A DNA stretch of 64,000 nucleotides, from assembly GCA_963805975.1 (NCBI GenBank), contig CAWDVR010000002.1, forward strand, positions 1 to 64,000. Direction: 5' to 3'. The DNA is from an uncultured Acidobacteriota bacterium (GTDB lineage: Bacteria > Acidobacteriota > Thermoanaerobaculia > Multivoradales > SZUA-115). The position numbers were made by a program, and so were the translations under genes. Position 1 is the stretch's first letter, and each line of letters opens with the position of its first letter. A model generated the notes under the pieces. It was not told where the DNA came from. It saw nothing but the letters and a program-made list of their open reading frames with translations, and searched no databases. Positions 1 through 39,480 of this stretch are shown in pieces.

Positions 1-146
1 ACTCTCAACAACTGGCGTTCGGAAGGTACCGGCCCGACTTTTCATAAGCTCGGCCGCCGCACCTCTACACGCGCGCCGACCTCGACAGTTGGGTGGCGTC
101 GTGCCGGCGCCGGAGCACCAGCAGCACCGAGTGCAGGCGGGGCTGA
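1..146 (+). CDS. 3' part of an excisionase/AlpA-like HTH (HTH_17-type) DNA-binding protein, with an apparent frameshift near 62
   Basis: Frame 1 reads TLNNWRSEGTGPTFHKLGRR. After a one-base shift it continues LYTRADLDSWVASCRRRSTS...TGA (144-146), the typical wHTH excisionase pattern. The start lies outside the window. Confidence 0.6.
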
Positions 147-660
147 CGAGAGGGAAGCCCGCATACTGGCAGCCGCACGCCACCGAAGCGGTGAGACTGT
201 GAGGCAAACTGCCGGAAGGGCTCTCGGCTCCGACAGGTCGGCGAAGCTCGGCTTCCTTCCTTCGATCAAGCCCTTCCACTCGGTGCTCGATGGGTTGAAG
301 GAGGACCCGGCGCCGCTGAAGATCCGCGGCGCCGGTGAGTCTGGCAGGAGGGCCATCCTCACTTCCTCGAAACGCGTTACTCCAGGACGCTGGAAGAGAA
401 GGCACCGGACCACAAAGGGCGCCGGGAACCTCTCCGAGCTAGTGAGCCTCCTGGGGGTCCCGAGTTCCACCTGGCAAGCGGCCCGTGAGCTTGCGACCCG
501 GGGAGTTTTCGTGAAAGCGAAAACACAGCTCGGTGTAGAAGATGCCGTAACTGATGATGAGGAAAGAGGATGGGGGCTGCGCGATGCTGAGCACCACCGC
601 GACAGCGTCCGTCGGGTTAATGCTGGCCAACTCGCTGTCGCGGAGAACCAAGATGCACTA

Positions 661-667
661 GTTAGGC
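661..667 (+). other. Left recombination site (GTTAGGC core) of the cassette array; attI-like or secondary site
   Basis: GTTAGGCGTCTGGGTCA (661-677) is the near-perfect reverse complement of TGACCAGACGCCTAAC (1511-1526), the R'' end of the first cassette. No attC hairpin precedes it. Confidence 0.65.
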
Positions 668-698
668 GTCTGGGTCATCCATATCGGTAACCAAGGCG

Positions 699-860
699 AT
701 GACGAAGAAGGCAGGAGAACTGCTCCGCCAAGCCCTCGACTTCAGCGAGGCGGATCGAGCCGAGCTGGCTACGTACTCCTTTGAGGCTGAAAGACCCCTT
801 TCCGTTCCCCCGGACTTGCCACACCCTCGCCACGATTCTGGGCGATGCTCCGGAACATGA
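699..860 (+). pseudogene. Remnant of a putative addiction-module antitoxin component (TIGR02574-like N-terminus)
   Basis: MTKKAGELLRQALDFSEADRAELA resembles the family N-terminus; the rest of the ORF shows no similarity. Confidence 0.3.
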
Positions 861-1525
861 AGCTCTTTCTGGGGTTCGCCGCGCTCTTCGCGCTCATCCT
901 ATTCTTCACGCTCCATTGGAGCTCGGAGGAGCGGCTTGGCACCCACACAGTGGACAAGCCTCGGAGGCCGTCATTCGCGGTTAGAGTGGGTCAAGGCCCC
1001 CCTCGACCGGCCGCTCCTTGGGCTCTTCCCCGAAAAGTGGCTCACGAAATGGACCCAAGTCCCGGCGAGCTGAGCTTCGATCATTCGAGCCCTGGCGCCA
1101 GCGGAAGTGTCGGCCCGTCTCACGCCTCGAGTTGCACGCGGAAGGCTGGCATCTCCTCCTCGAACTCGACCGCGATGGCCGCGTCACTCCCGAGACAGCC
1201 CTCGTGCTCCCGATGAACCATGCGGGGCGACGCCGGGCGCTTCATTGCCGTCCGTCGCGACAGGCTCGGTGCCGATCTCCGTGCCACCCCTGCCGACGTC
1301 CCCGGCGCGTTCGACGGTGCGCCTTCCGCTTTCAGCTCTCCGCTGTCGAGGTCGCCGCGACGGGAGAAGCCATCGATTGGCCGGTGGCGCCGATGACCGT
1401 CACCGGGAACTTCACGGCGCTGCCGGCAGTGAGCACCGGCGGCGAGCGCCGTCCCCGTCGGGATCCGCCGGAACCGGGATTTGTCGCTCCAGCAGACCTC
1501 AGACCCTTCGTGACCAGACGCCTAA
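857..1525 (+). pseudogene. Cassette 1 ORF: secreted/membrane-anchored hypothetical protein split by frameshift(s)
   Basis: Hydrophobic N-terminus MKLFLGFAALFALILFF (ORF 845-1216). Protein-like sequence continues in ORF 1018-1653 (RLELHAEGWHLLLELD...FRFQLSAVEV) up to the attC. Confidence 0.35.
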
Positions 1526-1596
1526 CCCCCTCGTTGCAGCGGACACCACCGGGCATTCACCCGGGCGGTGCCGCTGAAACTCATACACCGTTAGAT
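1520..1596 (+). other. Integron attC site 1 (R' box interrupted by the IS)
   Basis: R'' GCCTAAC (1520-1526), inner arms TTGCAGCGG/CCGCTGAA, R' GTTAG (1590-1594) followed by AT from the IS. Confidence 0.85.
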
Positions 1597-1739
1597 CCTA
1601 TGCGTGGTCCGGGCGGTAGGTGGATCGGAAGGAGCACGGGTCGTCCCGAGTAAGCTTCCTTTGAGACCGAGCAAAGGGAGGAGCTGAGCTCTCAGACGAC
1701 CCGTGGTAAGGGGTATAGCGCAGAAGGGCCCCTCGGACG

Positions 1740-2829
1740 GTGTATCTGGCTTTCGAGCTGGGCAACACGGAGTGGAAGCTGGCGTTCACGGTGGGGCTGG
1801 GGCAGAAGCCTCGAGAGCGGACGATTCCGGCTGGTGAGGTTGGACGGCTGGCGGAGGATCGAGCGGGCGAAGCAGCGGTTTGGCCTGGCCAGTTCGGCCC
1901 GAGTGGTGAGCTGTTACGAGGCGGGGCGAGACGGGTTCTGGTTGCATCGGTTCCTGGGCGAGGTGGGGGTGGAGAGCCTGATCGTGGATTCCTCGAGCAT
2001 CGAAGTGCAGCGTCGAGGTCGGCGAGTGAAGACCGACCGACTCGATGCACGCAAGCTGGTGACGATGCTGATCCGCTACGACGGGGGTGAGCGCAAGGTG
2101 TGGAGCGTAGTGCGGGTGCCGGCATTGGAGGAAGAAGAGAATCGGCAGCTTCACAGGGAGCTGGGAGAGCTGAAACGCGAGCGGACGCGCCTGACGAACC
2201 GGATCAAGGGCTTACTCGTGGGCCAGGGGATACGGATCGAGCTGAAGAGGGACTTCGTCGAGCGTCTTGGAGCGGCGCAGATGTGGGATAGCAGCCCTGT
2301 GCCGGCGGCGCTGCGCTGCCGGCTACTGCGGGAGTGGGAGCGCGTGGAGCTGATCAACCGACAGATTCGGGAGCTGGAAGACGATCGCGAGGAGCTGGTG
2401 CGGGAGTGGGACAGCCCGGAGGTCGAGAAGGTGCGCAGGCTGATGCAGCTACGCGGGATCGGGATCAACTTCTCCTGGCTTCTGGTCATGGAGTTCTTCG
2501 GGTGGCGACGGTTCCGCAACCGGCGTCAGGTGGGGTCTCTCGCGGGCCTGGTGCCGACGCCGTACCAGAGCGGCGCCAGCAGCAGGGAGGCAGGCATCAG
2601 CAAGGCAGGCAACGTGTGGGTGCGAGCGGTGGCCATTGAGATGGCCTGGGCCTGGTTGCGATTCCAGCCCCGCAGTGAGCTGGCAAGGTGGTACCGAGAG
2701 CGCTACGCTCAGGGCGGCAGTCGGATGCGACGGATCGGGATCGTCGCAGTGGCTCGCAAACTCTTGGTGGACCTCTGGCGGTACCTGGACTGGGGCGTGA
2801 TCCCAGCCGGCGCTGCCCTGAAGGCGTAG
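1740..2829 (+). CDS. IS110-family DEDD transposase/recombinase (frameshift near 1857; true start probably near 1685)
   Basis: YLAFELG, SCYEAGRDG and KTDRLDA RuvC-like motifs; C-terminal GLVPTPYQSG...ISKAGN. The two ORFs (1740-2090, 1834-2829) join if one base is restored. Confidence 0.9.
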
Positions 2830-2858
2830 CAGAGTCGGAGTATTGATGAGAGCTGACG

Positions 2859-3036
2859 CTGGTGGAGGTGCCCGTTGTGCCGCCGGGTCTTCGAGTGAGG
2901 ACCGAACGTTAGATGGGGCCACCCCGAGAGGGCTTCACCAGTTCGCCGAAGTCGAATGCAGGATTAGGTGCTCGGCCGAAATGAGCCGACACGGATAGAA
3001 GGTTGCTCAGGCGCAGTGACGCCTGACCCTCGGCGA
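2859..3036 (+). ncRNA. Predicted bridge/seek RNA of the IS (target-binding loop plus donor-binding loop)
   Basis: Stems CTGGTGGAG/CTTCACCAG, GGTCTTC/GAGGACC, TCGCCGA/TCGGCGA and GTG-C-TCGGC/GCCGA-CAC. The loops carry TGCCGCC and AACGTTAG (target) and AGGATT and ATAGAAG (donor). Confidence 0.75.
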
Positions 3037-3069
3037 GGCCCACAGCGACGGCTTGGAGTTGAAAACGAA

Positions 3070-3103
3070 AGCGGGGATCAGTCCGGATCCGGAGATCCCC
3101 GCT
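3070..3103 (+). terminator. GC-rich hairpin in the IS right end
   Basis: AGCGGGGATC...GATCCCCGCT 10-bp inverted repeat; no clear U-tract. Confidence 0.35.
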
Positions 3104-3184
3104 CGAACCGAGAAGCTTGACGGGAACGGCCTACATAGAAGGCGCGCCTCGGAAGGACTTCGGAGAAGCGTCAGGAGATCAAGA

Positions 3185-3849
3185 ATGAAGGATCTCTCCA
3201 TTGATTTCGGCCTTCTGATTGCGTACTTCATCCCGGGTCTCTTAGGGCTTCGAGCGCTCGCCTATCTTCCACCCAGGCCGCTTGACTCGGTGTTGGCGGC
3301 CTCAGGAACAGAATCCGCTACTGGCATTCTCCTCCAAATCGCCTTTTCTCTGCTGCTCGGCATGGTTATCAGCATCCTCCGCGCCACGCTTCTCGACAGA
3401 ACGTTTGGGCTAAGTATGCGACGTCTGCCGTTCATCCCTGACAAACCTCCGTACGCGGCTGTCAAGCGCGCCGAACCAAAGTATGAGCGTATGCGCGACG
3501 AGGGAATCCTCAACGCCTCCGCGAAGCCCAGCTGCAGGAAAAGAGGCCTTACCAGTTCTATGGAAACTCCCTCCTTTCCTCGGCCCTGCTGGTAGTCTGC
3601 CGGTCATTCACCCACACTGACCGTGCACTTGATGGGGAGCTGCTTTGGCTTCCTCTCCTGATGATCGGCTGGGGGTCACTCTACGTAGGGGCTCGCACTT
3701 CCCACGCCCGCTACATGAATGCCGTGGAGAAAGCTGAAGGCTCTACCACCCTGAGAGCAAGCCTAACGCGGCCAGTGGTGCGGCCCTCGCCTACGGCGTC
3801 GCCGCTCACCGGCAGCAACGTTAGACGCCGGAGGAAATGCGCAACGTGA
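3185..3849 (+). CDS. Cassette 2 membrane protein (about 4 TM), with an apparent frameshift near 3517
   Basis: MKDLSIDFGLLIAYFIPG... joins, after a one-base shift, to REAQLQEKRPYQFYGNSLL...LLMIGWGSLYVG. It lies between two attC sites; the 3' end is uncertain because the frame runs through the attC. Confidence 0.6.
3761..3826 (+). other. Integron attC site 2
   Basis: R'' GCCTAAC (3761-3767), imperfect palindrome GCCAGTGGTGCGGC/GCCGCTCACCGGC, R' GTTAGAC (3820-3826). Confidence 0.85.
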
Positions 3850-3962
3850 ATGAGGATATCAGCTTCGACCTCTTCCTCAGCCACAGCGCGAAGGACAAGA
3901 CGGTGGTGGGGCCGCTGGCGGAGAGATTGCGGGCCAATAGCCAGAGGAGTTTCCTGCGATGA
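3837..3962 (+). pseudogene. 41-aa TIR-domain (TIR_2-type) N-terminal stub
   Basis: RBS GGAGG, then MRNVNEDISFDLFLSHSAKDKTVVGPLAERLR (TIR box 1). Its TGA overlaps the ATG of the NACHT gene (ATGA). Confidence 0.7.
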
Positions 3963-6900
3963 AACCCACGCCGAACCCGCTCAGTCAATATCATGTGTTC
4001 CTTGCCTCGCCCGGTGACGTGGGGACGGAACGGCAGTACGTGCGAAGGTTCTTCGATGAATACAACCGCCACACCGCCCATATTTGGCGTGCCCGGTTTG
4101 AGGTTGTGGACTGGGAGAACTACGCGACCATCGGCGTTGGCCGGCCCCAGGAACTGATCACGCAGCAAACTTTGGAGAAGTACCGGAAGTCGTTGGCGTT
4201 GGTCATCGGAATCATGGGCCAGCGGTTCGGCTCGCCGTCCGGCAAGGCGGAGTCGGGGACCGAGGAAGAGTTCAACTGGGCGATGGAGAGCCACAAGTCC
4301 TCGGGCTTCCCGGAGATCAAATGGTTCTTCCGCAAAGTGGACACGTTGGAGTTGCCGGCCGATCCCGACGAGGCGGACGCGGCGCTGGACCAATGGAAGA
4401 AGGTCCGCGCCTTCCGCAAGCGGATGCAGGACCTGAACAACCCGGTCTTCTACGCGGAGTATCCGAGTTCGGCCGGATTTGCCGAGGTCTTCGAGCGCGA
4501 CCTCAACCAATGGCTGGCCGATCCGGCGCGCCCGTGGGCTGCGCAATTGGCGGCCCACGTTGCGGCCACGGGCGGCTCGGCCGCAGTCGCACTGCCCGCC
4601 GAGTTCGATGCGGAACGCTACCGGGCCGCGGTGCTCAAGCAGTTCGACAAGCTCAACTTCGAGATGCTCGACACGACCGGCGCGTTCTACAGCGCTGTCC
4701 GGCTGTGGAGTGTCTTTGTCCCGCAGTCGGTGCGGGAATGCCATCAATACAACCCGCGGCTGCTGGAAATCCCCAAGGAACACCAGCGGCGGCTATTGGA
4801 CGCTGGCGAGATCACCACGAAGGAACTCGAGGAAGCCGAGCAGCAGGCGGATCGGCTGCGGCAGGAGTACTTCCACCAGCCGCTCCGTCCCGTGCTGGAT
4901 GTCGTGGATGAGGCCCTTCGTACATCGCCGGCAGGGGCCGGGCGGAAGCTGGTCATCTTGGGCGACCCTGGCTCCGGCAAGTCGTCGCTGATCCGCTATC
5001 TGGCCCTGCGCTGGGCGGGAATTGCCGAACCGACAGTTCGGGACACGCAGCCAATTCCGCTGGTGGTCGAGCCGGGCACCTACGCCCGCTGGCAGTGCGA
5101 CGGCCGCAAGGATTTCATCCGCTACCTAGAGGAAGGCCCGGTCTGGCACGGATGGCAGCGCGGCCTGCTCAGCCGGCTGCTTGAACAGCCCGGGCGGGTC
5201 GTTTTGCTGCTCGATGGGTTGGACGAAGTCTTTGACGTGCCGACGCGCGAGACGGTGATCAACGACATTCAGCGGTTCGCCAGTCAGTTTGCCAATGTAC
5301 CGGTCGTCCTCACGTCGCGCGTGGTGGGCTATCAAGCGCAGCGGTTGCGCGAGTCCGAGTTCCGGCACTTCATGTTGCAGGATTTGGACTCCACACAAAT
5401 CATCGACTTCGTGAATCGCTGGCATGGGGTGACTTTCGACGACCCGGCGCAGGCGGCTCCGAAGCGGGACCGCTTGCAGAAGGCGATCCACGAATCCAAG
5501 TCCATTGCCATGCTGGCCGGCAACCCGCTCCTCCTGACCATGATGGCCGTTCTGAACCGCAACCAGGAATTGCCGCGGGACCGGGCCGACCTGTACGCCC
5601 AGGCGTCGCGCGTGCTTCTGCACCAGTGGGACACGGAGCGCGCGCTGGAAGACTTTCCGGGGATGAGCACCGAAATCGGCCTGCGGGAGAAGACCGACAT
5701 CCTCCGCCGCCTCGCCGCACACATGCAGGCCGGTCCCGGCGGGCTAAAAGGCAACATGATTGATGGCTCGACGCTGGCCGACTTGATCGAGGAGTACCTG
5801 CAGAACGAGCTGCATTTCGCCCAAGCCCGCGCCGCGGCCCGCGCCGTTGTCGATCAGTTGCGGCAACGCAATTTCATTCTCTGCTTCGTCGGCGCGGACA
5901 GTTACGCCTTTGTGCACCGTACGTTCCTGGAGTACTTCTGCGCCGCCGATTTCGTGCATCAGTTCAACGTTGCCAAGACGCTCGACATCGACGGTCTGAT
6001 CGCCCTGTTCGACCAACACTGCCGCGACGACGAATGGCGCGAAGTCCTGCGGCTGATCTGCGGACAGATCGACGAAACTTTCGTGGGCCGGATCGTCGAA
6101 CGATTGGCCACGCAATCGCCCTTGGAACAATGGAAGGGCACGACGCCCCTTCCCGAAGTGCTTACCGCTGTAGCCTGCCTGACCGAAGCTAGAAACGTGA
6201 TCAAGATAGAGGCCGCTTGTCGGTCCGTAATATGGCGAGTGGCCTCTGCTACGACGCGGCCAGGTACGGTCGAATATACAAGGCGTTTCTTTCAAGAGGT
6301 AATTGACTTAGCTGCCGAGATCCCCTCATGCAGCCAGATATTCGCGAGTCTCGAGCCGCAGCTCTTATCGCTCAGATCGGCGTTCAAGGACGAAATTAAC
6401 TATCGGACTCCGTTCTACCCCAGACTACTCGCCAGTGTTGGTGCCAATCGTCGAACGATAGAGCGATTCGCTGGCGACCCCAAAGAAGGAATTCGTGAAG
6501 GCGCCCTTATAGCGTTGGCGGAGAAGTGGCCGGACCAGACCACCCGCGACCTGCTCGCCCAGCGCGCCGTCCAGGATGACAACTACCAACCCCGCAGCGC
6601 CGCGCTGCAGGCGTTGGCGGAGAAGTGGCCGGACCAGACCACCCGCGACCTGCTCGCCCAGCGCGCCGTCCAGGATGACAACTACCAACCCCGCAGCGCC
6701 GCGCTGCAGGCGTTGGCGGAGAAGTGGCCGGACCAGACCACCCGCGACCTGCTCGCCCAGCGCGCCGTCCAGGATGACAACTACCAACCCCGCAGCGCCG
6801 CGCTGCAGGCGTTGGCGGAGAAGTGGCCGGACCAGACCACCTGCGACCTGCTCGCCCAGCGCGCCGTCCAGGATGACAACTACCAACCCCGCAGCGCCGC

Positions 6901-8344
6901 GCTGCAGGCGTTGGCGAAGAAGTGGCCGGACCAGACCACCCGCGACCTGCTCGCCCAGCGTGCGGTCCAGGATGACAACGAGTACACCCGCAGCGCCGCG
7001 CTGCAGGCGTTGGCGAAGAAGTGGCCGGACCAGACCACCCGCGACCTGCTCGCCCAGCGCGCCGTCGAGGATGACAACGCGGGCCCCCGCCGCGACGCGC
7101 TGCAGGCATTGGCGGCGAAGTGGCCGGACCAGACCACCCGCGACCTGCTCGCCCAGCGTGCCGTCCAGGATGACAACGAGGACACCCGCAGCGCCGCGCT
7201 GCAGGCGTTGGCGGAGAAGTGGCCGGACCAGACCACCCGCGACCTGCTCGTCCAGCGCGCCGTCCAGGATGACAACGAGGACACCCGCAGCGCCGCGCTG
7301 CAGGCGTTGGCGGAGAAGTGGCCGGACCAGACCACCTGCGACCTGCTCGCCCAGCGCGCCGTCCAGGATGACAACTACCAACCCCGCAGCGCCGCGCTGC
7401 AGGCGTTGGCGAAGAAGTGGCCGGACCAGACCACCCGCGACCTGCTCGCCCAGCGTGCCGTCCAGGATGACGACTACCAACCCCGCAGCGCCGCGCTGCA
7501 GGCGTTGGCGAAGAAGTGGCCGGACCAGACCACCCGCGACCTGCTCGCCCAGCGCGCCGTCGAGGATGACAACGCGGGCCCCCGCAGCGCCGCGCTGCAG
7601 GCATTGGCGGCGAAGTGGCCGGACCAGACCACCCGCGACCTGCTCGCCCAGCGTGCCGTCCAGGATGACGACGCGGACAACCGCCGCGACGCGCTGCAGG
7701 CGTTGGCGGAGAAGTGGCCGGACCAGACCACCCGCGACCTGCTCGTCCAGCGCGCCGTCCAGGATGACAACGAGGACACCCGCAGCGCCGCGCTGCAGGC
7801 GTTGGCGGAGAAGTGGCCGGACCAGACCACCCGCGACCTGCTCGCCCAGCGCGCCGTCCAGGATGACAACGAGGACACCCGCAGCGCCGCGCTACAGGCG
7901 TTGGTGGCGAAGTGGCCGGACCAGACCACCCGCGACCTGCTCGCCGAGCACGCCGTCCAGGATGACAACGCGGACAACCGCCGCGCCGCGCTGCAGGCGT
8001 TGGCGGAGAAGTGGCCGGACCAGATCACCCGCGGCCTGCTCGCCCAGCGCGCCGTTGAAGCACCGGATATGTCGGAACGCGGTGCCGCCTGTTCCGCCCT
8101 GGGCAAGATGCACTCCGAGTTCGGCCGCATCCTGCCGACGCGAGACTTCGACGGCGTCGGGCCGTATCTCGATCCCCTCGAACCGATTCCACGCCAGCAC
8201 ATCGAGAAGGCAGCAGCGAAGGTTGGTATCCGTCCCGACGAGATCGACGCCCACGTCGCCGCGCTGTCGGCTTACTTGGGGTGGGAGGTCATGAGCGGGG
8301 CGAAGACCGATCGACCAAAGCCTGGCCACAAGCGGCGCAATTGA
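3959..8344 (+). CDS. NLR-like protein: DUF4062/TIR-like N-terminal domain + NACHT NTPase + HEAT-like repeats
   Basis: VFLASPGDV...GQRFGSPSG...SGTEEEF (DUF4062-like); Walker A GDPGSGKS; Walker B LLLDGLDE; GNPLLL; FVHRTFLEYF; C-terminal 33-aa helical repeats. Confidence 0.9.
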   Translation: MKPTPNPLSQYHVFLASPGDVGTERQYVRRFFDEYNRHTAHIWRARFEVVDWENYATIGVGRPQELITQQTLEKYRKSLALVIGIMGQRFGSPSGKAESGTEEEFNWAMESHKSSGFPEIKWFFRKVDTLELPADPDEADAALDQWKKVRAFRKRMQDLNNPVFYAEYPSSAGFAEVFERDLNQWLADPARPWAAQLAAHVAATGGSAAVALPAEFDAERYRAAVLKQFDKLNFEMLDTTGAFYSAVRLWSVFVPQSVRECHQYNPRLLEIPKEHQRRLLDAGEITTKELEEAEQQADRLRQEYFHQPLRPVLDVVDEALRTSPAGAGRKLVILGDPGSGKSSLIRYLALRWAGIAEPTVRDTQPIPLVVEPGTYARWQCDGRKDFIRYLEEGPVWHGWQRGLLSRLLEQPGRVVLLLDGLDEVFDVPTRETVINDIQRFASQFANVPVVLTSRVVGYQAQRLRESEFRHFMLQDLDSTQIIDFVNRWHGVTFDDPAQAAPKRDRLQKAIHESKSIAMLAGNPLLLTMMAVLNRNQELPRDRADLYAQASRVLLHQWDTERALEDFPGMSTEIGLREKTDILRRLAAHMQAGPGGLKGNMIDGSTLADLIEEYLQNELHFAQARAAARAVVDQLRQRNFILCFVGADSYAFVHRTFLEYFCAADFVHQFNVAKTLDIDGLIALFDQHCRDDEWREVLRLICGQIDETFVGRIVERLATQSPLEQWKGTTPLPEVLTAVACLTEARNVIKIEAACRSVIWRVASATTRPGTVEYTRRFFQEVIDLAAEIPSCSQIFASLEPQLLSLRSAFKDEINYRTPFYPRLLASVGANRRTIERFAGDPKEGIREGALIALAEKWPDQTTRDLLAQRAVQDDNYQPRSAALQALAEKWPDQTTRDLLAQRAVQDDNYQPRSAALQALAEKWPDQTTRDLLAQRAVQDDNYQPRSAALQALAEKWPDQTTCDLLAQRAVQDDNYQPRSAALQALAKKWPDQTTRDLLAQRAVQDDNEYTRSAALQALAKKWPDQTTRDLLAQRAVEDDNAGPRRDALQALAAKWPDQTTRDLLAQRAVQDDNEDTRSAALQALAEKWPDQTTRDLLVQRAVQDDNEDTRSAALQALAEKWPDQTTCDLLAQRAVQDDNYQPRSAALQALAKKWPDQTTRDLLAQRAVQDDDYQPRSAALQALAKKWPDQTTRDLLAQRAVEDDNAGPRSAALQALAAKWPDQTTRDLLAQRAVQDDDADNRRDALQALAEKWPDQTTRDLLVQRAVQDDNEDTRSAALQALAEKWPDQTTRDLLAQRAVQDDNEDTRSAALQALVAKWPDQTTRDLLAEHAVQDDNADNRRAALQALAEKWPDQITRGLLAQRAVEAPDMSERGAACSALGKMHSEFGRILPTRDFDGVGPYLDPLEPIPRQHIEKAAAKVGIRPDEIDAHVAALSAYLGWEVMSGAKTDRPKPGHKRRN
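6503..8056 (+). repeat. 99-bp coding tandem repeat, 15 full units plus 1 partial
   Basis: Unit ALQALAEKWPDQTTRDLLAQRAVQDDNxxxRSA; units start every 99 bp from 6503, with unit 16 at 7988. Confidence 0.97.
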
Positions 8345-8515
8345 TGGGCACCATGTGGTCGACGAGAGGCATGACTCTGGCGGGGGACGCCGGGATGATG
8401 GAGGCCAGGATCTTGAAGCACGACTTGGCGCACGAACCCTCGGTGCAGGAGTTCGCGCGCGGCGCCCGCAAGACACACCTCTTGCGGGCGATCGGTTAGT
8501 CGTGCGCACATCGGC

Positions 8516-8579
8516 GTTTAACAACCGGTTGCAGCGGACGGTCCGCTGCGCGGCCCGCCGCGGAACCGGAGCGTTCGGC
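8516..8579 (+). other. Integron attC site 3 (right end of the array)
   Basis: R'' GTTTAAC (8516-8522), arms CCGGTTGCAGCGG/CCGCGGAACCGG, R' GTTCGGC (8573-8579). CGGCGTTTAAC is complementary, with 1 mismatch, to GTTAGACGCCG at the start of cassette 3. Confidence 0.8.
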
Positions 8580-8852
8580 CCTCCTATCGCCTTACCCGCC
8601 GCCTTAGGTACGCTGTCGAGTGGCATGCCGGGCTGAGGGCCGCCTCAAGAGCCTTCCAAAGCGCATGCTGAGCGCATGCCGAGCAATTCGGAAGCAGCGA
8701 GGCTCCCGGAGTCAATTCTCCGGAAGGCTCAGATTAAGCGAGACTTAGGACGACCTGACCTCAGTCTCGGCAGCTTGACCGAGTATGTGAGGATTTCCGG
8801 GAGGACCCGAAACGCAGCAGATCGACCGCGGAGCAGGTATTCGTGGGCGCTC

Positions 8853-9572
8853 TTAGGGAGTTTCGATCCGGAAGGAGCGGGCCATGGTGGTGGGCCCGTC
8901 GAGCACGGTCCAGAGGTATTGGACGCCCGGCCGGAGCTTCGCTCTCTCTTCCTCGGGGAACTGCATCTCGCCCCCTGCGGTCGGCGGGCTGGTCCAGCGG
9001 TGGGAGCCGTTGGCCTCGAACAGCAGCACTCGCTGCGGCGCGCCGTCTCCGGCCGGGAACACGAACTTCTCGGGCGGCGCGGCCAGGGTGCCCGCCGGCG
9101 AGAAGTCGCCGTCCTCGGCCTGGGTGCCGCGGAGGTTGTCTTCCTGCGCCGGAGCCGGCATGACCTCGGGGCGGGCCGTCCACCACAGGCCGAGGCCCAC
9201 CGCGCCGGCCGCCAGCGTGGCCGCGAGCGCCAGGACCGGCGGCTCCAGGAAGCGGCGCCGCCGAGACTCGGCCCTGGGAGCCCGCCAGGGCAGGGCCGCC
9301 GCCGCCGGGGGCTGGGTCGCTCGGGGCTGGGCCACCGGAGCCTCCACCGCCTGGCGGAAGCGCTCCCACTCGGCCTCGAGCTTGGCGGCCGGCACCGGCT
9401 GGGGCCGGTCGAACGCCTCCAGGCGCAGCAGCTCTTCAGAGCACGCGGCGCAGGTCGCGGCATGGGCCAGCACTCCCTCGGCCTCGGCGCCTCGCGGACC
9501 CCGGGAGGCGCGGTACAGCTCTTCTGCCGAGGGATGCGGCCCGGACGGGCGCCGGGGCGTGGGATCGGTCAC
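8853..9572 (-). CDS. Membrane-anchored anti-sigma factor (zinc-binding HxxxCxxC)
   Basis: GTG start overlapping the sigma stop; HPSAEEL...HAATCAACSEEL motif; TM segment VLALAATLAAGAVGLGLWW; extracytoplasmic C-terminal domain. Confidence 0.8.
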   Translation of the reverse strand: MTDPTPRRPSGPHPSAEELYRASRGPRGAEAEGVLAHAATCAACSEELLRLEAFDRPQPVPAAKLEAEWERFRQAVEAPVAQPRATQPPAAAALPWRAPRAESRRRRFLEPPVLALAATLAAGAVGLGLWWTARPEVMPAPAQEDNLRGTQAEDGDFSPAGTLAAPPEKFVFPAGDGAPQRVLLFEANGSHRWTSPPTAGGEMQFPEEERAKLRPGVQYLWTVLDGPTTMARSFRIETP

Positions 9573-10099
9573 GGCTCTCCTTCCACGAGCGCGCGCAGGC
9601 GCCGGCGGGCGTTCCAGATCTGGACCTTGACGGTGGGCAGAGACAGCGACAGGCGGCCGGCGATCTCCTTGTAGGAGAGGCCCTGCTGCACGTGGAGCAG
9701 CAGGCAGGTGCGCATGCCGTTGGGCAGCCGGGTGAGGGCCGCGACGGTGCGGGCCAGGTCGTGGCGGCTCTCCGCCTCCACGTCGGCCGTGACCTGCAGG
9801 TCGGGCAACGCCTCGCTCACCGGCTCCGTCTCTGCCATACGACCTTTCCGGCGCCACTCGTCGCGGGCGGCGTTGCGCGCAATCGAGTAGACCCAGGCAT
9901 CGAAGCTGCCCTCGGCCCGGAACTCCTCCTTCGCCTTGTAGACGTTCACCAGGACGGTTTGACTTAGATCGTCGGCGTCGGCCGCCTGGAAGCCGCTGGC
10001 GAGGAAGTAACTGCGCAGGCGGGGAAAGAAGCGCTCGAAGACGGCGCGGAACTCGTCTCCGCCGCCGGCCTCCGGCGCCGCGTGGCTCGCCTCTGGCAT
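9569..10099 (-). CDS. ECF RNA polymerase sigma-70 factor
   Basis: Region 2 DADDLSQTV...FDAWVYSIARN; region 4 GLSYKEIAGRLSLSLPTVKVQIWNARRRL. Confidence 0.92.
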   Translation of the reverse strand: MPEASHAAPEAGGGDEFRAVFERFFPRLRSYFLASGFQAADADDLSQTVLVNVYKAKEEFRAEGSFDAWVYSIARNAARDEWRRKGRMAETEPVSEALPDLQVTADVEAESRHDLARTVAALTRLPNGMRTCLLLHVQQGLSYKEIAGRLSLSLPTVKVQIWNARRRLRALVEGEP

Positions 10100-10160
10100 G
10101 GACGGCATCTCAGCGCAAGATGCGGAGGCTGTCAACGAGGAGCTGGAAGGCCCGCCACCC

Positions 10161-13100
10161 TCACCGCCCGTCGCCGTTGAGCTCGAAAGCGGCCCAGTGG
10201 AAGGGGTGGCGGAGCGCGGCGTCGACGCCCTCGCCGCGCGCGAACGAGCGCTGGGCCTCGGCCAGGGCCTCGTCTTTGGGCCGCCCGCGGGCGAGCGCCG
10301 CGTAGAAGCGCGCCATCAGCTCCGCGGTCGAGCGGTCCGACACCGGCCACAGCGCGGCGATCACCGAGCGCGCGCCGGCGTACTGGAAGGCGCGCGTGAG
10401 GCCGATCAGCCCCTCGCCCGCCGCGTCCTTGCCGAGCGCCGTGTCGCAGGCGGACAGCGTCACCAGGTCGGCGTCGAGCCGGAGCTGTTCGAAGATCTCC
10501 CAGGCCTGGAGCAGGCCGTTCTCTTCGTCCCCCGGTCGTGGGATCGACAGCGCCAGGGCCGAGTCGAGCGGTATCCGGGGGTCGAGCAGCGCATGGCAGG
10601 CGAAGTGGAGGTAGCGGGGCGAGGCCGCGAGCCGCTTGACCGCCTTCTCGGTGGCGTCGGCTCCGAGGAAGGCCTGGCTCTCGCCGCGGTAGAGGCGCGC
10701 CAGGGCCTCGACCTCGTCGCGGGTGCCGGCGATCGCCGCCAGGCCACGCTGATACCGCCGGGTGGGCCCCTCGTCCGCGCCGCTGGCGAGCACGGACCCG
10801 GTCTCGCCGGCAGAGTCCCCGGGTGCCGACGCCGCACCATAGAGCGGGTCGCCGAAGGCCACCAGCCGGCCGTCCGAACGCGGCGCCGAAGCCCTGCCGC
10901 GCCGCAGCTCGGCATAGAGCGTGGCCGAGAGCACGAGATGGATCGGCCGGTCTTCGACCAGGAAGCGAGGCGGGTCGCCGGCCCTCGCCAGCGCCGCGAA
11001 CGGCAGGGCGTGGAGGGGGCCGTCCGGCGAGACGAGAAGCCGCCGCGCCGGGCCGAAGGCCGCTTCGGCCGGCGCCAGGAGGAGGTCGTAGAGCCGAGCC
11101 GCCTGCGCCAGCACTGCCGCGGTGGCGCCGGCGTCCCGACGACCGTCGAGGATCAGGCCGCGAAACACCGCCACCTCCTGCGCCGCCCGGTCGCGGCCGA
11201 TGGCCAGCCTGAAGAGGCCCACCTCCGGGGACTCCGGTCGCACCACGAACAGCAGCCCCTCCTCCGCCGCGAGGCTGAACGACAGCCAGGCCGTGCCCGG
11301 ATCGAGCACGGCGCGGATCTCGGCCAGCGACAGGATGCGCGGGTTGGTGAGCGAGTCGTAGCGCGGCGAGGCGTCGGCGATCTCCTGCGCCAGGAGGCCC
11401 CGTTCGGCACGGAGCTGGGCCAGCGCTTCCAGGCTCGTTCCCGGCACCGCGGCGGAGAGCGCGGCCTGTGCGCGCTCGTACTCGCGCTCCAGGCGGCGCC
11501 GCCGCTCGCGCAGCTCGGCGGGGAGATCGGCGGCGAAAGCCAGCTCTCGGCTCGCCAGCTCGATGAGCAGCGAGCGCCCCCGCGAGCGCTCCAAGGTACG
11601 GAGGGCCTGCTCGCGGTCCCCTCGCCGGGCTTGCAGGTCCATCAACAGGTGGTAGAAGGGGAGGTAGGAGTCGAGGTAGCTGGTCCGCGCCTCGTCCGCC
11701 CCGCCGAGCCTGCCGATCTGCTGCTCGAAGGTCTCGATCGCCGTCGTGAGCGCCGCCTCGGCCTCCCGATCGCGACCCAGCCGCTCGTAGAGCTGGCCGA
11801 GCGAGGCCCAGGACTGGGCTTGGCGGGTGGTGCCGGGCGCCACCCGGCGCAGCAGCGCCAGCCCCTCTTCGAGGCAGCGCTCGGCCTTGGCCCAGCGCTC
11901 GGCTCGGAACGAGGCGTGGCCGAGGTTCTGCAACGCGATCGCCTCGCGCAGCGTGCCGCGCCCGAGCTGGCGGCTGAGCGCCAGGGCGCGCTCCAGGTGG
12001 CGATCGGCGGTGGCATGTTCCCCCCGCTTCATCGCGGTCATGCCGAGCCCCTGGAGGCTGCCCGCCAGGTAGTGGCTGCCCGGGGCGCGCCGCTCCTGGA
12101 TGGCCAGCGCTTCCTGCCCCCAGCGCTCGGCCTCGTCGAGCCGGTCGGCCTTCATGGCCACGAAGCACATCTGGCTCAGGGTGCTGGCCTCGCCGAGGGA
12201 CCCCGGGACCACGCGGCGCTCCAGGTCGAGCGACCGCTGAAAGAAGCGCAACGCACCCTCGAGATCGCCCCGGTCGCGGGCGTTGCCGGCCAGGCGCTCG
12301 AAGACCGCCGCCACCGCGGTGGTCTCGGGGAGCGGCGAGTCGTAGACCGCGAGCGCCTGGCGCAGCGCCTCGTCACTGGCCGCGAGGTCGCCGCGGTCGC
12401 TCGCCGCCTGGGAGACGTTCACCAGAGTGCGCGCCAGATCCTCGTGCTTCGGGCTCACTCGCTGGAGCATGTCGGCCGAGCGCCGGAAGTAGGCCTCGGC
12501 CTCGGCGGGCTCTCCCCGCCGCTTGGCGAGCGCGCCGAGGTTGTTGAGCGGCTGCGACTCGTAGAGGCTCTCCGGGGCCAGGCGGTGGGTCAGCGCCAGG
12601 GCCTCTTCGAACCGCGCCTGGGCATCTGCCAGGCGCTCGCGAAAGAGCGCCACCGTACCCAGGTTGTTGAGCGTCCAGGCCCTCTCCAGGCTCACCGGCG
12701 CCTGCCGGTCCCAAAGCGCCAGCGCTCCGCCCAGGTGTTGCTCGGCGAGGTCGAGGTTGCCGCGGATGCGCTCGAGCCGGCCCAAGGCGTGGAGGGAGGC
12801 TGCCTCGGAGAGGCTCCCGGGGGCCGCCTGCCGGCGCCGGGACAGTGCTTCCTCGAGCGCTTGGGCGGCGCGCGCCAGATCCGGCTGCGCCCCATAGGCC
12901 AGGCCCTGCTCCTGGCGGACCAGGGCTTCGAGGAGCGGTGCGCCGAGCGGCCTGGCCGCGGCCAGCGCCGCCTCGAAACCGCTCTGTGCCGCGGGCCAGT
13001 CGCGTGCCTCGGCAGCCCGCCGCCCGCGTGCCAGGGCCTCCCACACCGGCCGATCCGCGGCACCCGTTGGGGCAGGGAGCACGCTGAGCTTCCACTCGCC

Positions 13101-13472
13101 TGGCGGCATCCGCACCGTCCGCCGCCGCCTGTCGCGCCACACTTCCAGCTCGACCGGGCCGCGCGGCGCCTGCTCCACCTCGAGCAGGGCGAGCTCGAGG
13201 CAGGAGGAGAGGGTGCCCTGCGCACCGTCCGGGTTGGCGGGCGGCGCCGGGCCGCGCGAGAACGAGAGCAGCCGGTCGCCGGCCTGGAGGCCCGCCCTGG
13301 CACCGGCGCCGTCCGCGGCAACGTGCTCCACCACCACCGCGGCGTCCGGCGGCGCGGGAGCGCAGCCGCCGACTGCCAAGGCGCTTGCCAAGGCGAGAAG
13401 GCAAGAAAAGGGCAGCGGGGCGGGGCGGGATGTGGCTCTCAACTCCGAGCTAGCGCCGGCCGAGCGAGTCAT
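10161..13472 (-). CDS. Lipoprotein: PDZ-like + TPR array + CHAT (caspase-like) protease
   Basis: Lipobox-like LAVGGC; GARAGLQAGDRLLS (PDZ); multiple TPRs; CHAT motifs PDGPLHALPFAAL, LHFACH, LSACDT, LWPVSD, HPFHWAAF. Confidence 0.9.
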   Translation of the reverse strand: MTRSAGASSELRATSRPAPLPFSCLLALASALAVGGCAPAPPDAAVVVEHVAADGAGARAGLQAGDRLLSFSRGPAPPANPDGAQGTLSSCLELALLEVEQAPRGPVELEVWRDRRRRTVRMPPGEWKLSVLPAPTGAADRPVWEALARGRRAAEARDWPAAQSGFEAALAAARPLGAPLLEALVRQEQGLAYGAQPDLARAAQALEEALSRRRQAAPGSLSEAASLHALGRLERIRGNLDLAEQHLGGALALWDRQAPVSLERAWTLNNLGTVALFRERLADAQARFEEALALTHRLAPESLYESQPLNNLGALAKRRGEPAEAEAYFRRSADMLQRVSPKHEDLARTLVNVSQAASDRGDLAASDEALRQALAVYDSPLPETTAVAAVFERLAGNARDRGDLEGALRFFQRSLDLERRVVPGSLGEASTLSQMCFVAMKADRLDEAERWGQEALAIQERRAPGSHYLAGSLQGLGMTAMKRGEHATADRHLERALALSRQLGRGTLREAIALQNLGHASFRAERWAKAERCLEEGLALLRRVAPGTTRQAQSWASLGQLYERLGRDREAEAALTTAIETFEQQIGRLGGADEARTSYLDSYLPFYHLLMDLQARRGDREQALRTLERSRGRSLLIELASRELAFAADLPAELRERRRRLEREYERAQAALSAAVPGTSLEALAQLRAERGLLAQEIADASPRYDSLTNPRILSLAEIRAVLDPGTAWLSFSLAAEEGLLFVVRPESPEVGLFRLAIGRDRAAQEVAVFRGLILDGRRDAGATAAVLAQAARLYDLLLAPAEAAFGPARRLLVSPDGPLHALPFAALARAGDPPRFLVEDRPIHLVLSATLYAELRRGRASAPRSDGRLVAFGDPLYGAASAPGDSAGETGSVLASGADEGPTRRYQRGLAAIAGTRDEVEALARLYRGESQAFLGADATEKAVKRLAASPRYLHFACHALLDPRIPLDSALALSIPRPGDEENGLLQAWEIFEQLRLDADLVTLSACDTALGKDAAGEGLIGLTRAFQYAGARSVIAALWPVSDRSTAELMARFYAALARGRPKDEALAEAQRSFARGEGVDAALRHPFHWAAFELNGDGR

Positions 13473-16409: not shown

Positions 16410-16442
16410 TTTGTTGCAAGTACCAACAAACAGTGCTACGAT
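16410..16442 (+). promoter_or_regulatory. marR promoter with overlapping palindromic operator
   Basis: TTTGTTG-N7-CAACAAA (16410-16430); -35 TTGCAA (16414-16419), 17 bp spacer, TG-extended -10 TACGAT (16437-16442). Confidence 0.7.
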
Positions 16443-16449
16443 GCAGCTC

Positions 16450-16959
16450 ATGAGCAGCGTGGCGGCCCTCCGTTCAGTAGTTGAAAACCCCGAGCTGGCG
16501 CAGGACACCGAGGAGCTGTACGACGCATTGGAGGATCTGCTGCGCGTGTATCAGTTCCGCGACCGCGACCGCATCTGCTGCTTCGACATCTCGGTCTCTC
16601 AATGCTACGCCTTGGAAGGGCTCGTGCGGCGGGGGGACATGACTCTCAACGACCTCGCGGCCTATCTCTATCTCGACAAGAGCACGGCGAGCCGGGTAGT
16701 AGACGCCTTGGAGCGTAAGGGCTATGTGACCCGCTCCCCTCATCCCGAGGACGGCCGGGCCTTGCTGCTCGAAGCGACCCGCGCTGGTAGCACACTCGAA
16801 GGTCGAATCCGAGAGTCGATCCTCGCCGAGGAGCGAGGCCTCGTCGCCGATTTCGCACCAGACGTTCGCAAGGCCATGACGCAGCTCATCCGCCGTCTCG
16901 CCCGCGCCGCCCAGGCGCAGGTCGAAGCCGGCGGCGGAAGCTGCTGCAGAGTTTCGTAA
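16450..16959 (+). CDS. Cys-rich MarR-family regulator, probably arsenic-responsive
   Basis: wHTH LDKSTASRVVDALERKGYV...DGR; ICC...QC motif and C-terminal SCC; directly upstream of arsM. Confidence 0.88.
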   Translation: MSSVAALRSVVENPELAQDTEELYDALEDLLRVYQFRDRDRICCFDISVSQCYALEGLVRRGDMTLNDLAAYLYLDKSTASRVVDALERKGYVTRSPHPEDGRALLLEATRAGSTLEGRIRESILAEERGLVADFAPDVRKAMTQLIRRLARAAQAQVEAGGGSCCRVS

Positions 16960-17005
16960 CGCCGCGCCTAGGCGGGAGCCACGGCGCGTTTTTCTTGCAC
17001 CTACA

Positions 17006-17020
17006 GTTGCAAGTGACAAC
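17006..17020. promoter_or_regulatory. Second copy of the MarR operator, upstream of arsM
   Basis: GTTGCAAGTGACAAC versus GTTGCAAGTACCAAC at 16413-16427 (GTTG-N7-CAAC). Confidence 0.65.
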
Positions 17021-17036
17021 CGAAAGAGGAGACATC

Positions 17037-17918
17037 ATGAACAGTCAATCCCCGAGCACAGATCAGCCACTCGACCCAGCCGCCTTGCGCGAGGTCGTCC
17101 AGGCGAAGTACGGCGAGGCAGCGCGCAGCGTGAAGCAGGGAGCCCCCGCTTCCTGCGGCTGCGGGAGCTGCGGCTGCGGCCCTGACCCGATCACCTCAGA
17201 TCTCTACGACGGGCAGCAGACGGCGAGTCTTCCCACCGAGGCGGTGCTCGCCTCCCTGGGCTGCGGCAACCCCACGGCCCTGGCCGAGCTCGCGCCGGGC
17301 GAGGTAGTCCTGGATCTGGGTTCCGGCGGCGGCATCGACGTGCTGCTCTCCGCCAGGCGCGTCGGTCCCGCCGGCAAGGCCTACGGGCTGGACATGACGG
17401 ACGACATGCTCGACCTGGCGCGCGAGAACCAGCGTCGCGCCGGGGTGGAGAACGTCGAGTTTCTGAAGGGCGAGATCGAGGCGATTCCACTGCCCGAGGG
17501 CGCAGTAGACGTGGTCATCTCGAACTGTGTGATCAACCTCTCGGCCGACAAGCGGCAGGTGCTTGCCGAGGCCTTCCGCGTGCTCCGGCCCGGCGGCCGC
17601 TTCGCCGTCTCAGACATCGTGGTCCGCGGGGAGATGCCGGCGGCCCTGCGCCGCAACGTCGAGCTATGGATCGGCTGCGTCGCCGGCGCCCTCGAGGAGC
17701 CGGAGTATCGGCGGCTCCTCGCCGAGGTGGGCTTCGAGGAGGTCGAGGTCGAGCCGACACGGATCTATCGCGCCGCCGATGCCCGCGCCTTCCTGGAGGA
17801 GGCCGCCATTGACCCCACAGGCTTGGACGAGATCGACGGCAAGGTGATGAGCGCCTTCGTCCGGGCTCGAAAGCCGACCCTGGCTCGCATCACTTCCATG
17901 GCGGAGGGGACTATGTAG
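17037..17918 (+). CDS. arsM: Arsenite methyltransferase
   Basis: [35 protein letters not shown] and WIGCVAGA motifs; RBS GAGGAG. Confidence 0.93.
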
Positions 17919-17973
17919 CGGCGCAGGCTACGAGGCGGGGTGAGATTCGCGGGAGGAGAGACCACAAACAGTC

Positions 17974-18008
17974 TTGCAATATACATTGCGTCAAACTATA
18001 TTGACGCA
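17974..18008 (+). promoter_or_regulatory. Promoter and palindromic ArsR-type operator
   Basis: -35 TTGCAA (17974-17979), 17 bp spacer, -10 TATATT (17997-18002); perfect inverted repeat TGCGTCAA-N6-TTGACGCA (17987-18008). Confidence 0.75.
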
Positions 18009-18010
18009 TC

Positions 18011-18787
18011 ATGACGACCGCGACTCTCCCCGCTCCATCGTCCTTTCTGAAGCTTCTGGCCCACGAACTTCGCTGGAAGCTCGTCGCCCATCTCGCCCGG
18101 AGTGACCGCCGAGTCCAAGAGCTGGTCGAGTGCGTCGACGAGCCGGCGAACCTGGTTTCCTACCACCTGCGCAGGCTGCGGGATCAGGCGCTCGTCCGCG
18201 AGCGCCGCAGTGCCGCGGACGGGCGAGATGTCTACTACAGCCTGGACCTGGATCGCCTCCGAGGTCTCTACTTTCGGACCGGCGAGACTCTGCATCCCGG
18301 CCTTGCCCCGAATCCGTCCGGGACGGCAGAGGCCTCGCGGGCAGGGGGAGAGCGGCCTACCCGGGTCCTCTTTCTTTGCACCCACAACAGCGCCCGGTCG
18401 CAGATGGCTGAAGCCATCCTCCGGCATCTCGCCGGGGATCGAGTGGAGGTAGCAAGCGCCGGCACGGTAGCTACCCGGATCCACCCACTCGCCGTCGCCG
18501 TGATGACCGAGGACGGTCTCGCCTTCCAGGGCCAGCGCTCGAAGCACGTGGACGAGCTCACGGGCCAACAGTTCGACTACGTGATCACGGTCTGCGACAA
18601 CGCCCGAGAGGCGTGTCCGGTCTTTCCTGGGGCGCCGGAGCACATCCACTGGAGCATCGCCGATCCTTCTGCCGTCGAAGGGAGCGAGGCAGTCAAGTTG
18701 CGGGCCTTCCGGAACGCGGCCGAGGAGCTCACGACGCGCATTCGGTATCTCGTCGTGGCCATCGACCGCCGGCGCGCAGGTTCATGA
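18011..18787 (+). CDS. ArsR-family HTH fused to LMW-PTP-type arsenate reductase (ArsR-ArsC)
   Basis: N-terminal [11 protein letters not shown]...VSYHLRRL; C-terminal [21 protein letters not shown]...ACP and HWSIADP. Confidence 0.9.
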
Positions 18788-39373: not shown

Positions 39374-39480
39374 GGAGGTACCTCCAGAGAATCCGGTTCC
39401 AGGAAGCGGCACGCCACCCTCGGGCGAGGGGACGGCCAAGATCTACGCTCGGGGGATCGCGCGCTCCGGCGCGCCGGGGC

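What the first reader, a model, noticed from the sequence alone, without database searches (positions are those of the whole stretch)
6503..8056. Near-identical 33-aa repeats with one hypervariable loop: a possible reshufflable recognition code
Seen: 15 units almost identical at DNA level. Variation concentrates in the loop after (Q/E)DD, in order NYQP x4, NEYT, NAGP, NEDT, NEDT, NYQP, DYQP, NAGP, DADN, NEDT, NEDT, NADN. Secondary switches are RSA/RRD/RRA and E/K/A before KW. Known analogies: fungal NLRs (HET-E/D WD40) with highly conserved repeats and diversified positions, and TALE repeat-variable residues. Inference: concerted evolution keeps the scaffold uniform, while unequal crossover or gene conversion reshuffles a small alphabet of specificity loops, giving a rapidly diversifying bacterial immune sensor.
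Basis: partly seen in the sequence, partly recalled or inferred. Interest (0 to 1): 0.85.

Follow-up and report, generated by a model that had tools for sequence, protein, structure and literature searches.

The report
Bacterial NLR with reshuffling binding face
This is one bacterial gene built like an animal or fungal NLR immune receptor: its 15 near-identical repeats differ mainly on a predicted binding face and are reshuffled between related copies, so it likely keeps changing which invader it detects before a predicted NAD-destroying domain shuts the cell down.

Summary
Observation confirmed. The array (6503-8086) is the sensor end of a single-copy 1461-aa gene (3959-8344): DUF4062-like TIR-fold domain, NACHT, 15 HEAT-like 33-aa units plus a cap, and a wHTH tail. 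The variable residues are the cap and first turns of helix B. Five of them match the randomised binding positions of engineered alphaRep binders. Reshuffling is visible: a 5-unit duplication whose copies differ almost only at these codons, and close homologues (95-97% identical) with wholly different repeat faces. The 'code' idea fails: 382 different loops occur in 566 units across the family. Internally conserved, reshuffling NLR repeats are known in fungi and were proposed for bacteria, so this is a new variant of a known kind. Ligand, NADase activity and defence are inferred, not shown. The exact unit order could not be checked against reads.

The parts
3959..8344 (+). NLR-like (STAND/NACHT) gene, 1461 aa, single copy in the genome
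   Evidence: ORF; Pfam NACHT, HEAT_2, wHTH-HSP90_Na over cut-off; no second copy by tblastn/blastn
3986..4528 (+). N-terminal DUF4062-like TIR-fold domain (aa ~10-190), predicted NADase effector; candidate catalytic E104 at 4268-4270
   Evidence: PF13271 22.3 bits, under the 24.7 cut-off; ESM Atlas 24 of 30 hits in DUF4062-bearing clusters, best 0.93; PADLOC PDC-S60 N-terminus E 5e-27; E104 invariant in 63 of 63 aligned proteins
4946..6103 (+). NACHT module: Walker A (aa 335-342), Walker B with DGLDE signature (aa 419-423), then conserved helical/winged-helix region (boundaries approximate)
   Evidence: PF05729 46.6 bits over cut-off 26.7; motifs invariant in alignment A1
6200..6493 (+). Second polymorphic segment (aa ~748-845) between NACHT module and array; comes in types that are likely exchanged between lineages
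   Evidence: 50 of 54 pairs with core >=90% identical share <35% here; Spearman with core -0.01; 31 clusters in 57 sequences; GC3 0.54 vs 0.82 in the core
6503..7987 (+). 15 near-identical 33-aa HEAT-like (alphaRep-related) units, variable at helix-B positions 20-23, 25, 26, 33
6800..7789 (+). 5-unit higher-order duplication (6800-7294 vs 7295-7789)
   Evidence: 14 differences in 495 nt, 13 of them in codons 20-26; shared rare variants seen
7988..8086 (+). Diverged capping unit, conserved as a cap among homologues
8129..8245 (+). C-terminal wHTH-HSP90_Na-associated domain, role unknown
   Evidence: PF24410 28.8 bits over cut-off 23; low model confidence
3761..3826 (+). attC-like site upstream of the gene
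   Evidence: motif scan; second-best hit in 64 kb, E 0.0048, with a model built only from four sites on another contig
8516..8579 (+). attC-like site downstream of the gene
   Evidence: best hit in 64 kb, E 0.00011
3837..3962 (+). 41-aa remnant of a TIR_2 gene start; its stop overlaps the NLR start codon (ATGA)
   Evidence: sequence; PF13676 E 0.014, under cut-off
1520..1596 (+). Third attC-like site, with an IS110-family element (about 1589-3144) starting at its end
   Evidence: motif scan; hairpin z -3.75; weak with the independent model (E 2.2, opposite strand); transposase Pfam; IS extent

Best explanation
This is a stand-alone bacterial NLR-like gene whose HEAT-repeat solenoid likely binds an invader (most likely phage) protein, which would trigger NACHT oligomerisation and predicted NAD destruction by the N-terminal DUF4062-like domain, while recombination between the near-identical units keeps rewriting the predicted binding face. 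SHOWN here: architecture; homogenised scaffold; variation concentrated on helix B at alphaRep-equivalent positions; recombination among units; different faces on near-identical backbones; a second segment that does not follow the core's ancestry. INFERRED: these residues line the concave face (alignment to alphaRep and helix spacing, not measured on coordinates); selection keeps them diverse; the ~100-aa segment is swapped by recombination between its conserved flanks and co-determines specificity or autoinhibition; NADase activity; abortive infection. Recognition would be a surface built jointly by neighbouring units, as in alphaRep and fungal HET-E, not one unit per symbol.
For: Architecture; 117 of the 120 listed homologues carry NACHT (my count). 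All 11 PDB sequence hits of five units are alphaRep proteins, and the variable sites align to alphaRep 18, 19, 22, 23 and 30 (positions and concave-face binding from PMC3754942 passages). With the window left out, within-protein variability in 79 homologues peaks at positions 22, 21, 20, 25, 23, 29. Control: six helix-A positions are as variable between proteins (0.74 vs 0.77) but much less so within proteins (0.37 vs 0.60); the alphaRep set is higher in 69 of 79 proteins. Recombination: 36 of 136 site pairs fail the four-gamete test; 13 of 14 differences between the duplicated 5-unit blocks are in codons 20-26. Window: 11 replacement and 0 silent changes at alphaRep sites vs 9 and 4 elsewhere; the replacement rate is 4.3 times the pooled silent rate, binomial p 0.008. 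P0022/P0163 (771 of 814 residues identical before the array, 9 units each) share 0 of 8 inner 8-residue words; P0057/P0063 (core 97%) differ in 3 of 3 inner loops. DUF4062 proteins are reported as phage-activated NADases or NAD-depleting defences (10.64898/2026.05.01.722283 and 10.64898/2026.06.25.731849, passages). Flanking attC-like sites; integron cassettes are reported to carry phage defence (10.1101/2024.07.02.601719, abstract start only).
Against: No ligand, activity or phenotype was tested. Positive selection is not firmly shown: pooled over 8 arrays the ratio at alphaRep sites is 1.13 with local silent sites (0.57 elsewhere); the window-only Fisher test gives p 0.10; counts are small and recombination biases them. 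The DUF4062 score is under Pfam's cut-off, direct BLASTP to a clear DUF4062 homologue is weak (E 0.059), and this domain was not folded. The 59 neighbour ORFs scanned (of 117 called in 16 loci) show no conserved partner and no clear defence island; a few are toxin-antitoxin, HNH or IS genes. attC-like sites were found in 0 of 26 homologue loci, with a pattern hand-built from this window. No intact integron integrase lies in the genome. Unit-number differences between identical backbones may be short-read collapse (PMC12222747 passages). The helix-A control set was picked after seeing the data, and homologues are not independent.
Confidence: 0.68

Rival explanations
1. Same defence protein, but the variation serves to escape phage-encoded inhibitors, or the array is a decoy or guard, rather than to set ligand specificity.
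For: 10.1101/2022.07.19.500537 argues this for the fast-evolving C-terminus of bNACHT01 (passage). The ~100-aa segment diverges along almost its whole length, more than a defined pocket would need.
Against: Array variation is confined to alphaRep-equivalent binding positions while the rest is homogenised. In fungal NLRs, such sites map to the binding face (PMC4986451 passages).
Confidence: 0.12
2. Neutral repeat turnover: unequal crossover homogenises the array, and the variable sites are simply the most tolerant surface positions.
For: Pooled ratio about 1.1 at these sites. Tandem arrays recombine whether or not they are selected (established knowledge).
Against: Equally tolerant helix-A sites are homogenised within proteins; 11:0 replacement to silent changes in the window, and 13 of 14 block differences in codons 20-26.
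Confidence: 0.1
3. Non-self recognition of something other than phage (plasmid or ICE proteins, competitor effectors, or kin discrimination like fungal heterokaryon incompatibility).
For: The closest evolutionary analogues, fungal HIC NLRs, act in allorecognition. Homologue neighbourhoods are not clear defence islands.
Against: No conserved partner or ligand gene nearby. Characterised bacterial NACHT/STAND and DUF4062 proteins act against phage.
Confidence: 0.07
4. TALE-like cipher: each loop type reads one symbol of a repetitive polymer, using a small shared alphabet.
For: Only 7 loop types in 15 units in this gene; regular solenoid.
Against: 382 loops in 566 units, none in more than 4 proteins; 147 different dipeptides at positions 21-22; arrays as short as 1-4 units in close homologues; loops are mostly acidic or polar, a poor fit to nucleic acid.
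Confidence: 0.03

Closest known systems
Fungal NLRs with high internal conservation (HIC): HET-E/HET-D/HNWD WD40 and Podospora Pa_6_7270 (sesB-like/NACHT/HEAT)
   Same: NACHT plus near-identical repeats, hypervariable binding-face positions, repeat-number polymorphism (3-12 for Pa_6_7270) and reshuffling (PMC4986451, PMC13449251 passages).
   Different: Bacterial; alphaRep-type 33-aa repeat; DUF4062-like effector; C-terminal wHTH; extra swappable segment; single mobile gene rather than a paralogue family in one genome.
Bacterial NACHT proteins (bNACHT; 10.1101/2022.07.19.500537), 'hybrid' class with superstructure repeats plus a small C-terminal domain
   Same: Effector-NACHT-HEAT sensor layout; Walker B D[GAS]hDE signature; anti-phage role shown for other members (passages).
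   Different: The passages read do not describe internal conservation, variable positions or reshuffling for HEAT members. Supplements, which may list this clade, were not visible.
Bacterial HIC NLRs noted in 10.1101/2020.01.06.895854 and PMC13449251 section 12
   Same: They report bacterial NLRs with 80-90% identical repeats and propose the same reshuffling idea.
   Different: They cover WD/TPR, or ANK/TPR/WD40/LRR. HEAT is not among the named types, and the text read has no allele-level or per-position analysis in bacteria.
alphaRep engineered HEAT-like binders (PMC3754942)
   Same: Sequence-related repeat; 5 of its 6 randomised positions (18, 19, 22, 23, 30) vary in this array, and the sixth (26) varies in homologues.
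   Different: Natural, 33 rather than 31 aa, also variable at the equivalents of 17 and 20, diversified by recombination, fused to a NACHT.
DUF4062 defence NADases Swarozyc and Evangelion; human TEP1/NWD1/NWD2/NPHP3 (DUF4062-NACHT)
   Same: DUF4062-like domain with conserved early Phe and a Glu before an aromatic (F14, E104-F105 here); DUF4062 next to NACHT as in the human proteins.
   Different: Swarozyc and Evangelion lack NACHT and repeats; the human proteins use WD40 or other repeats. Activity not tested here.
TALE repeat-variable diresidues (recalled, no call)
   Same: Near-identical repeats of about 33-34 aa with a few variable residues.
   Different: No shared small alphabet; variable sites are spread along one helix; NLR context.

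Membership tests
NACHT-class STAND (bacterial NLR-related) | NACHT NTPase with Walker A and D[GAS]hDE Walker B | tested here: met
   PF05729 over cut-off; motifs invariant; signature as given
NACHT-class STAND (bacterial NLR-related) | Tripartite effector-NTPase-repeat sensor architecture | tested here: met
   effector exchanged in homologues (NNH2, metallophosphoesterase, clear DUF4062)
NACHT-class STAND (bacterial NLR-related) | Ligand-triggered oligomerisation and anti-phage activity | not testable with these tools
   needs experiment
HIC NLR | Repeat similarity to consensus >=0.7 (PMC13449251) or >85% internal identity (PMC4986451) | tested here: met
   0.90 to consensus; mean pairwise 0.86
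HIC NLR | A few hypervariable positions on the ligand face | tested here: met
   face assigned by homology to alphaRep, not from coordinates
HIC NLR | Positive selection at those positions | tested here: inconclusive
   11:0 in the window (p 0.008 against pooled silent rate; Fisher p 0.10); pooled ratio 1.13
HIC NLR | Repeat number/order polymorphism between alleles | tested here: inconclusive
   Content differs at 95-97% backbone identity; number differences may be assembly collapse; no second allele of this exact gene found
DUF4062 TIR-like NADase | Sequence membership | tested here: inconclusive
   22.3 bits vs cut-off 24.7; Atlas supports
DUF4062 TIR-like NADase | Conserved catalytic Glu | tested here: met
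   E104 in 63 of 63; aligns to the Glu of the SYT..EF motif of P0018, a DUF4062 protein over cut-off
DUF4062 TIR-like NADase | NAD hydrolysis | not testable with these tools
   needs assay
Integron gene cassette | Gene bounded by co-oriented attC sites (R''/R' boxes, bottom-strand hairpin) | tested here: met
   the hairpin z-scores of the two flanking sites are weak (-1.41, -1.25); attC consensus is recalled, no library model was available (Rfam blank)
Integron gene cassette | Linked intact intI/attI | tested here: not met
   No TIGR02249 match over cut-off; only a C-terminal piece on contig C4. The window starts at a contig end, so a linked intI cannot be excluded; best read as an attC cluster lacking integrase
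TALE-like code | Small alphabet shared across family members | tested here: not met

The most novel reading that the evidence does not exclude
A mobile single-gene immune receptor with two tiers of diversification: a natural alphaRep-like library rewritten by recombination between units, and a whole ~100-aa specificity segment exchanged between distant lineages. Together they would give bacterial populations an antibody-like repertoire against changing phage proteins without reverse transcriptase, with arrays that could be reprogrammed by design.
Probability: 0.3. Interest if true: 0.82.

Novelty: new variant of a known kind. Interest (0 to 1): 0.62.

Why it matters
The idea that bacterial NLRs diversify by repeat reshuffling, as fungal ones do, has been proposed, but in the text I read it was not tested at position or allele level. 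This family makes it testable: one gene, no partner, a predicted NAD read-out, natural alleles with near-identical backbones and different faces, and a repeat scaffold whose binding rules are already known from alphaRep. The swappable segment next to the NACHT module is an extra layer that I did not find described (searches).

Tried and rejected
TALE-like code: rejected. Paralogous donor units elsewhere in the genome: none. Same-strain reads: 20 runs hold only 0.05-0.12 of the words; 8 were laid and show short pieces of relatives, none spanning the array, so no evidence on order, habitat or expression. The lack of cover over 6160-6487 in those runs was only a lead. Rfam: 4 chance-level hits. 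First attC scanners were too strict (0 and 1 of the 3 window sites); the motif was hand-built from the window's sites, hence the independent model. attC association of the family: 0 of 26 loci. Conserved partner genes: none seen. NCBIfam: no match over cut-off. Foldseek of the single-sequence model (mean pLDDT 66.8): generic HEAT solenoids only, TM by query length 0.34 or less in the rows shown. ESM Atlas for the C-terminus: all under 0.9. No structure model of the N-terminal half was obtained, so its fold and that of the variable segment stay untested. Among 40 related genomes, 22 match only at low identity (mostly about 26-36% over NACHT or N-terminal pieces), and no close family member was found in those searched. 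Earlier findings of the scan: none returned.
Full report
1. Observation. It lies in one uninterrupted 1461-aa ORF, 3959-8344, single-copy in a 5.36-Mb, 6-contig, 96% complete genome. Contigs of 0.3-1.5 Mb suggest a long-read assembly (inference). The contig start shows indels against another copy of the same IS, and no reads of this strain were found. Unit number and order are therefore plausible but unverified. An artefact cannot explain the phenomenon itself: a similar array of near-identical 34-aa units with varying loops stands in a complete Streptomyces plasmid record, and a short one in an Azotobacter plasmid.

2. Anatomy. Pfam gives DUF4062 (13-108, under cut-off), NACHT (330-489), HEAT_2 and wHTH-HSP90_Na (1391-1429). 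All 11 PDB sequence hits of five units are alphaRep binders. In that alignment the variable sites fall on alphaRep 18, 19, 22, 23 and 30, five of the six positions randomised in the library, which bind through the concave face (PMC3754942 passages). The AlphaFold model (single sequence, mean pLDDT 66.8) shows two helices per unit, with helix B starting at position 21. The 'loop' is thus the cap and first turn of helix B, and 21/22, 25/26, 29, 33 are spaced one turn apart.

3. Family. A search with residues 845-1461 found 177 clusters among 8000 scored candidates; 120 were listed, 117 with NACHT by my count. Named records include Thermoanaerobaculia, planctomycetes, Desulfobulbus, Trichlorobacter, Prosthecobacter, cyanobacteria and Streptomyces. 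Close members were not found in 40 related genomes, which points to horizontal spread (inference). Unit counts run from 3 to 26 in 121 proteins. Of 80 with at least 4 well-scoring inner units (41 dropped as shorter), 38 have mean unit identity of 0.7 or more and 7 of 0.85 or more. N-terminal effectors are exchanged: NNH2, metallophosphoesterase, DUF4062.

4. How the array evolves. Within the window, 36 of 136 informative site pairs fail the four-gamete test. Blocks 6800-7294 and 7295-7789 share rare variants and differ at 14 nucleotides, 13 of them in codons 20-26, in about three tracts. This fits duplication followed by short conversion tracts. Across 79 homologues the same positions are the most variable within proteins. 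Helix-A positions that vary as much between proteins are homogenised within them (0.37 vs 0.60; 69 of 79 proteins), which argues against mere tolerance; the control set was chosen post hoc and the proteins are kin. Replacement to silent counts at alphaRep sites are 11:0 in the window (9:4 elsewhere), but the pooled ratio over 8 arrays is 1.13 vs 0.57, so positive selection is suggested, not shown. Among 10 clusters of >=90% identity looked up, unit number varied in 7, was constant in 2, and in 1 (P0022/P0163) the number was equal but 0 of 8 inner words were shared. Number differences can be short-read collapse (PMC12222747 passages; records of one Streptomyces species give 11 and 7 units); new loop content on 95-97% identical backbones is much harder to explain that way. 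The alphabet is open: 382 loops in 566 units. There is no code.

5. A second variable segment. Residues ~748-845 average 24% identity among 54 proteins whose cores average 78%. Of 54 pairs with cores >=90% identical, 50 share under 35% here, while 25 pairs share 60% or more with cores as far apart as 70%. Correlation with core identity is -0.01, against 0.72 for the N-terminal domain. The segments are homologous (989 of 1596 pairs at E<0.001) and fall into 31 clusters in 57 sequences. DNA identity to the closest locus drops from 73-93% to 18-42% between about 6120 and 6520, then returns to 98%; GC3 is 0.49-0.61 against 0.72-0.88 in the core in 9 of 9 genes. Exchange of types by recombination between conserved flanks is the best reading; no formal tree test was run, and alignment here is uncertain.

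6. Effector. E104 is invariant in 63 of 63 aligned proteins and aligns weakly to the matching Glu of a clear DUF4062 homologue; ESM Atlas agrees with DUF4062. Two 2026 preprints report DUF4062 as a TIR-like NADase or NAD-depleting defence with a catalytic Glu. NADase activity here is a prediction.

7. Context. attC-like sites lie at 1520-1596, 3761-3826 and 8516-8579, all on + (attC consensus recalled). A covariance model built only from four sites on contig C4 ranks the two flanking sites first of 31 hits in 64 kb. No intact integrase was found, only a C-terminal piece on C4. The ~4.75-kb interval also holds a 41-aa TIR remnant whose stop overlaps the NLR start. This location is not a family trait (0 of 26 loci), and neighbours elsewhere are varied, with no conserved partner (59 of 117 called ORFs scanned).

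8. Mechanism and comparison. Most likely (0.68): ligand binding on the concave HEAT face releases the NACHT, oligomerisation activates the NADase, and the infected cell arrests; recombination renews the face. It works like a fungal HIC NLR. It is a member of the bacterial NACHT class and meets the HIC definition; selection and allele polymorphism tests are inconclusive. HIC HEAT NLRs exist in Podospora, and bacterial HIC NLRs with the same hypothesis are in print for other repeat types. I found no description of this family's variable positions, its alphaRep correspondence or its swappable segment (searches).

9. Papers seen. Passages only: 10.1101/2020.01.06.895854, PMC4986451, PMC3754942, PMC13581612, 10.1101/2022.07.19.500537, PMC12222747, 10.64898/2026.06.25.731849. 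Passages plus one section: PMC13449251 (section 12), 10.64898/2026.05.01.722283 (section 5). Search listing and abstract start: 10.1101/2024.07.02.601719. No supplements were read; the clade tables of the bNACHT and STAND papers may already list this family, which would lower novelty. TALE features, the attC consensus and the IntI C-terminal motif are recalled.

10. Verdict. Real feature; new variant of a known kind; interest 0.62.

Noticed in passing
window 1589-3144; G000:C4 about 8290-9845: An IS110-family element starts at the end of an attC-like site in both of its copies, suggesting an attC-targeting IS. The window copy has indels near its start relative to the C4 copy.
   Followed up: partly
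G000:C4:1-80000: Low-GC region with four attC-like sites, a piece of an integron integrase (about 11831-12361) and two adjacent ORFs with TIR-like starts (39101-41092): a likely decayed defence-cassette array.
   Followed up: partly
window 1-2027 vs G000:C6:1-2015: The contig start is repeated at 94.7% identity, reversed, at the start of contig C6: a duplication, strain mixture or low-quality contig ends.
   Followed up: no
window 3185-3762: Small membrane-protein-like ORF, apparently frameshifted, just upstream of the attC-like site; no Pfam match.
   Followed up: no
window 8853-13472 (-): CHAT/TPR protein (1103 aa) followed by an ECF sigma factor and a putative anti-sigma ORF, next to the cassette region.
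   Followed up: no
window 16411-19455: MarR-like regulator, methyltransferase and ArsR/ArsC-like plus aquaporin-like ORFs that look like an arsenic-resistance cluster (read from translations, not scanned).
   Followed up: no
L013:1-630, L015:1-653, L016:5280-5918, L021:7312-8001, L033:62-765: Homologous arrays often end at contig edges or hold N runs and frameshifts, so public records likely understate array length.
   Followed up: partly
P0076, P0079, P0080, P0087, P0109: These keep the DUF4062-like N-terminus (63-75% identical) and the repeats but carry a distant NACHT (about 30%): the NTPase core itself appears to have been exchanged.
   Followed up: no
window 8689-8793: A ~105-nt stretch just beyond the last attC-like site is repeated at 86% near the end of contig C1, with shorter copies on C3 and C5; it may mark the island border.
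   Followed up: no
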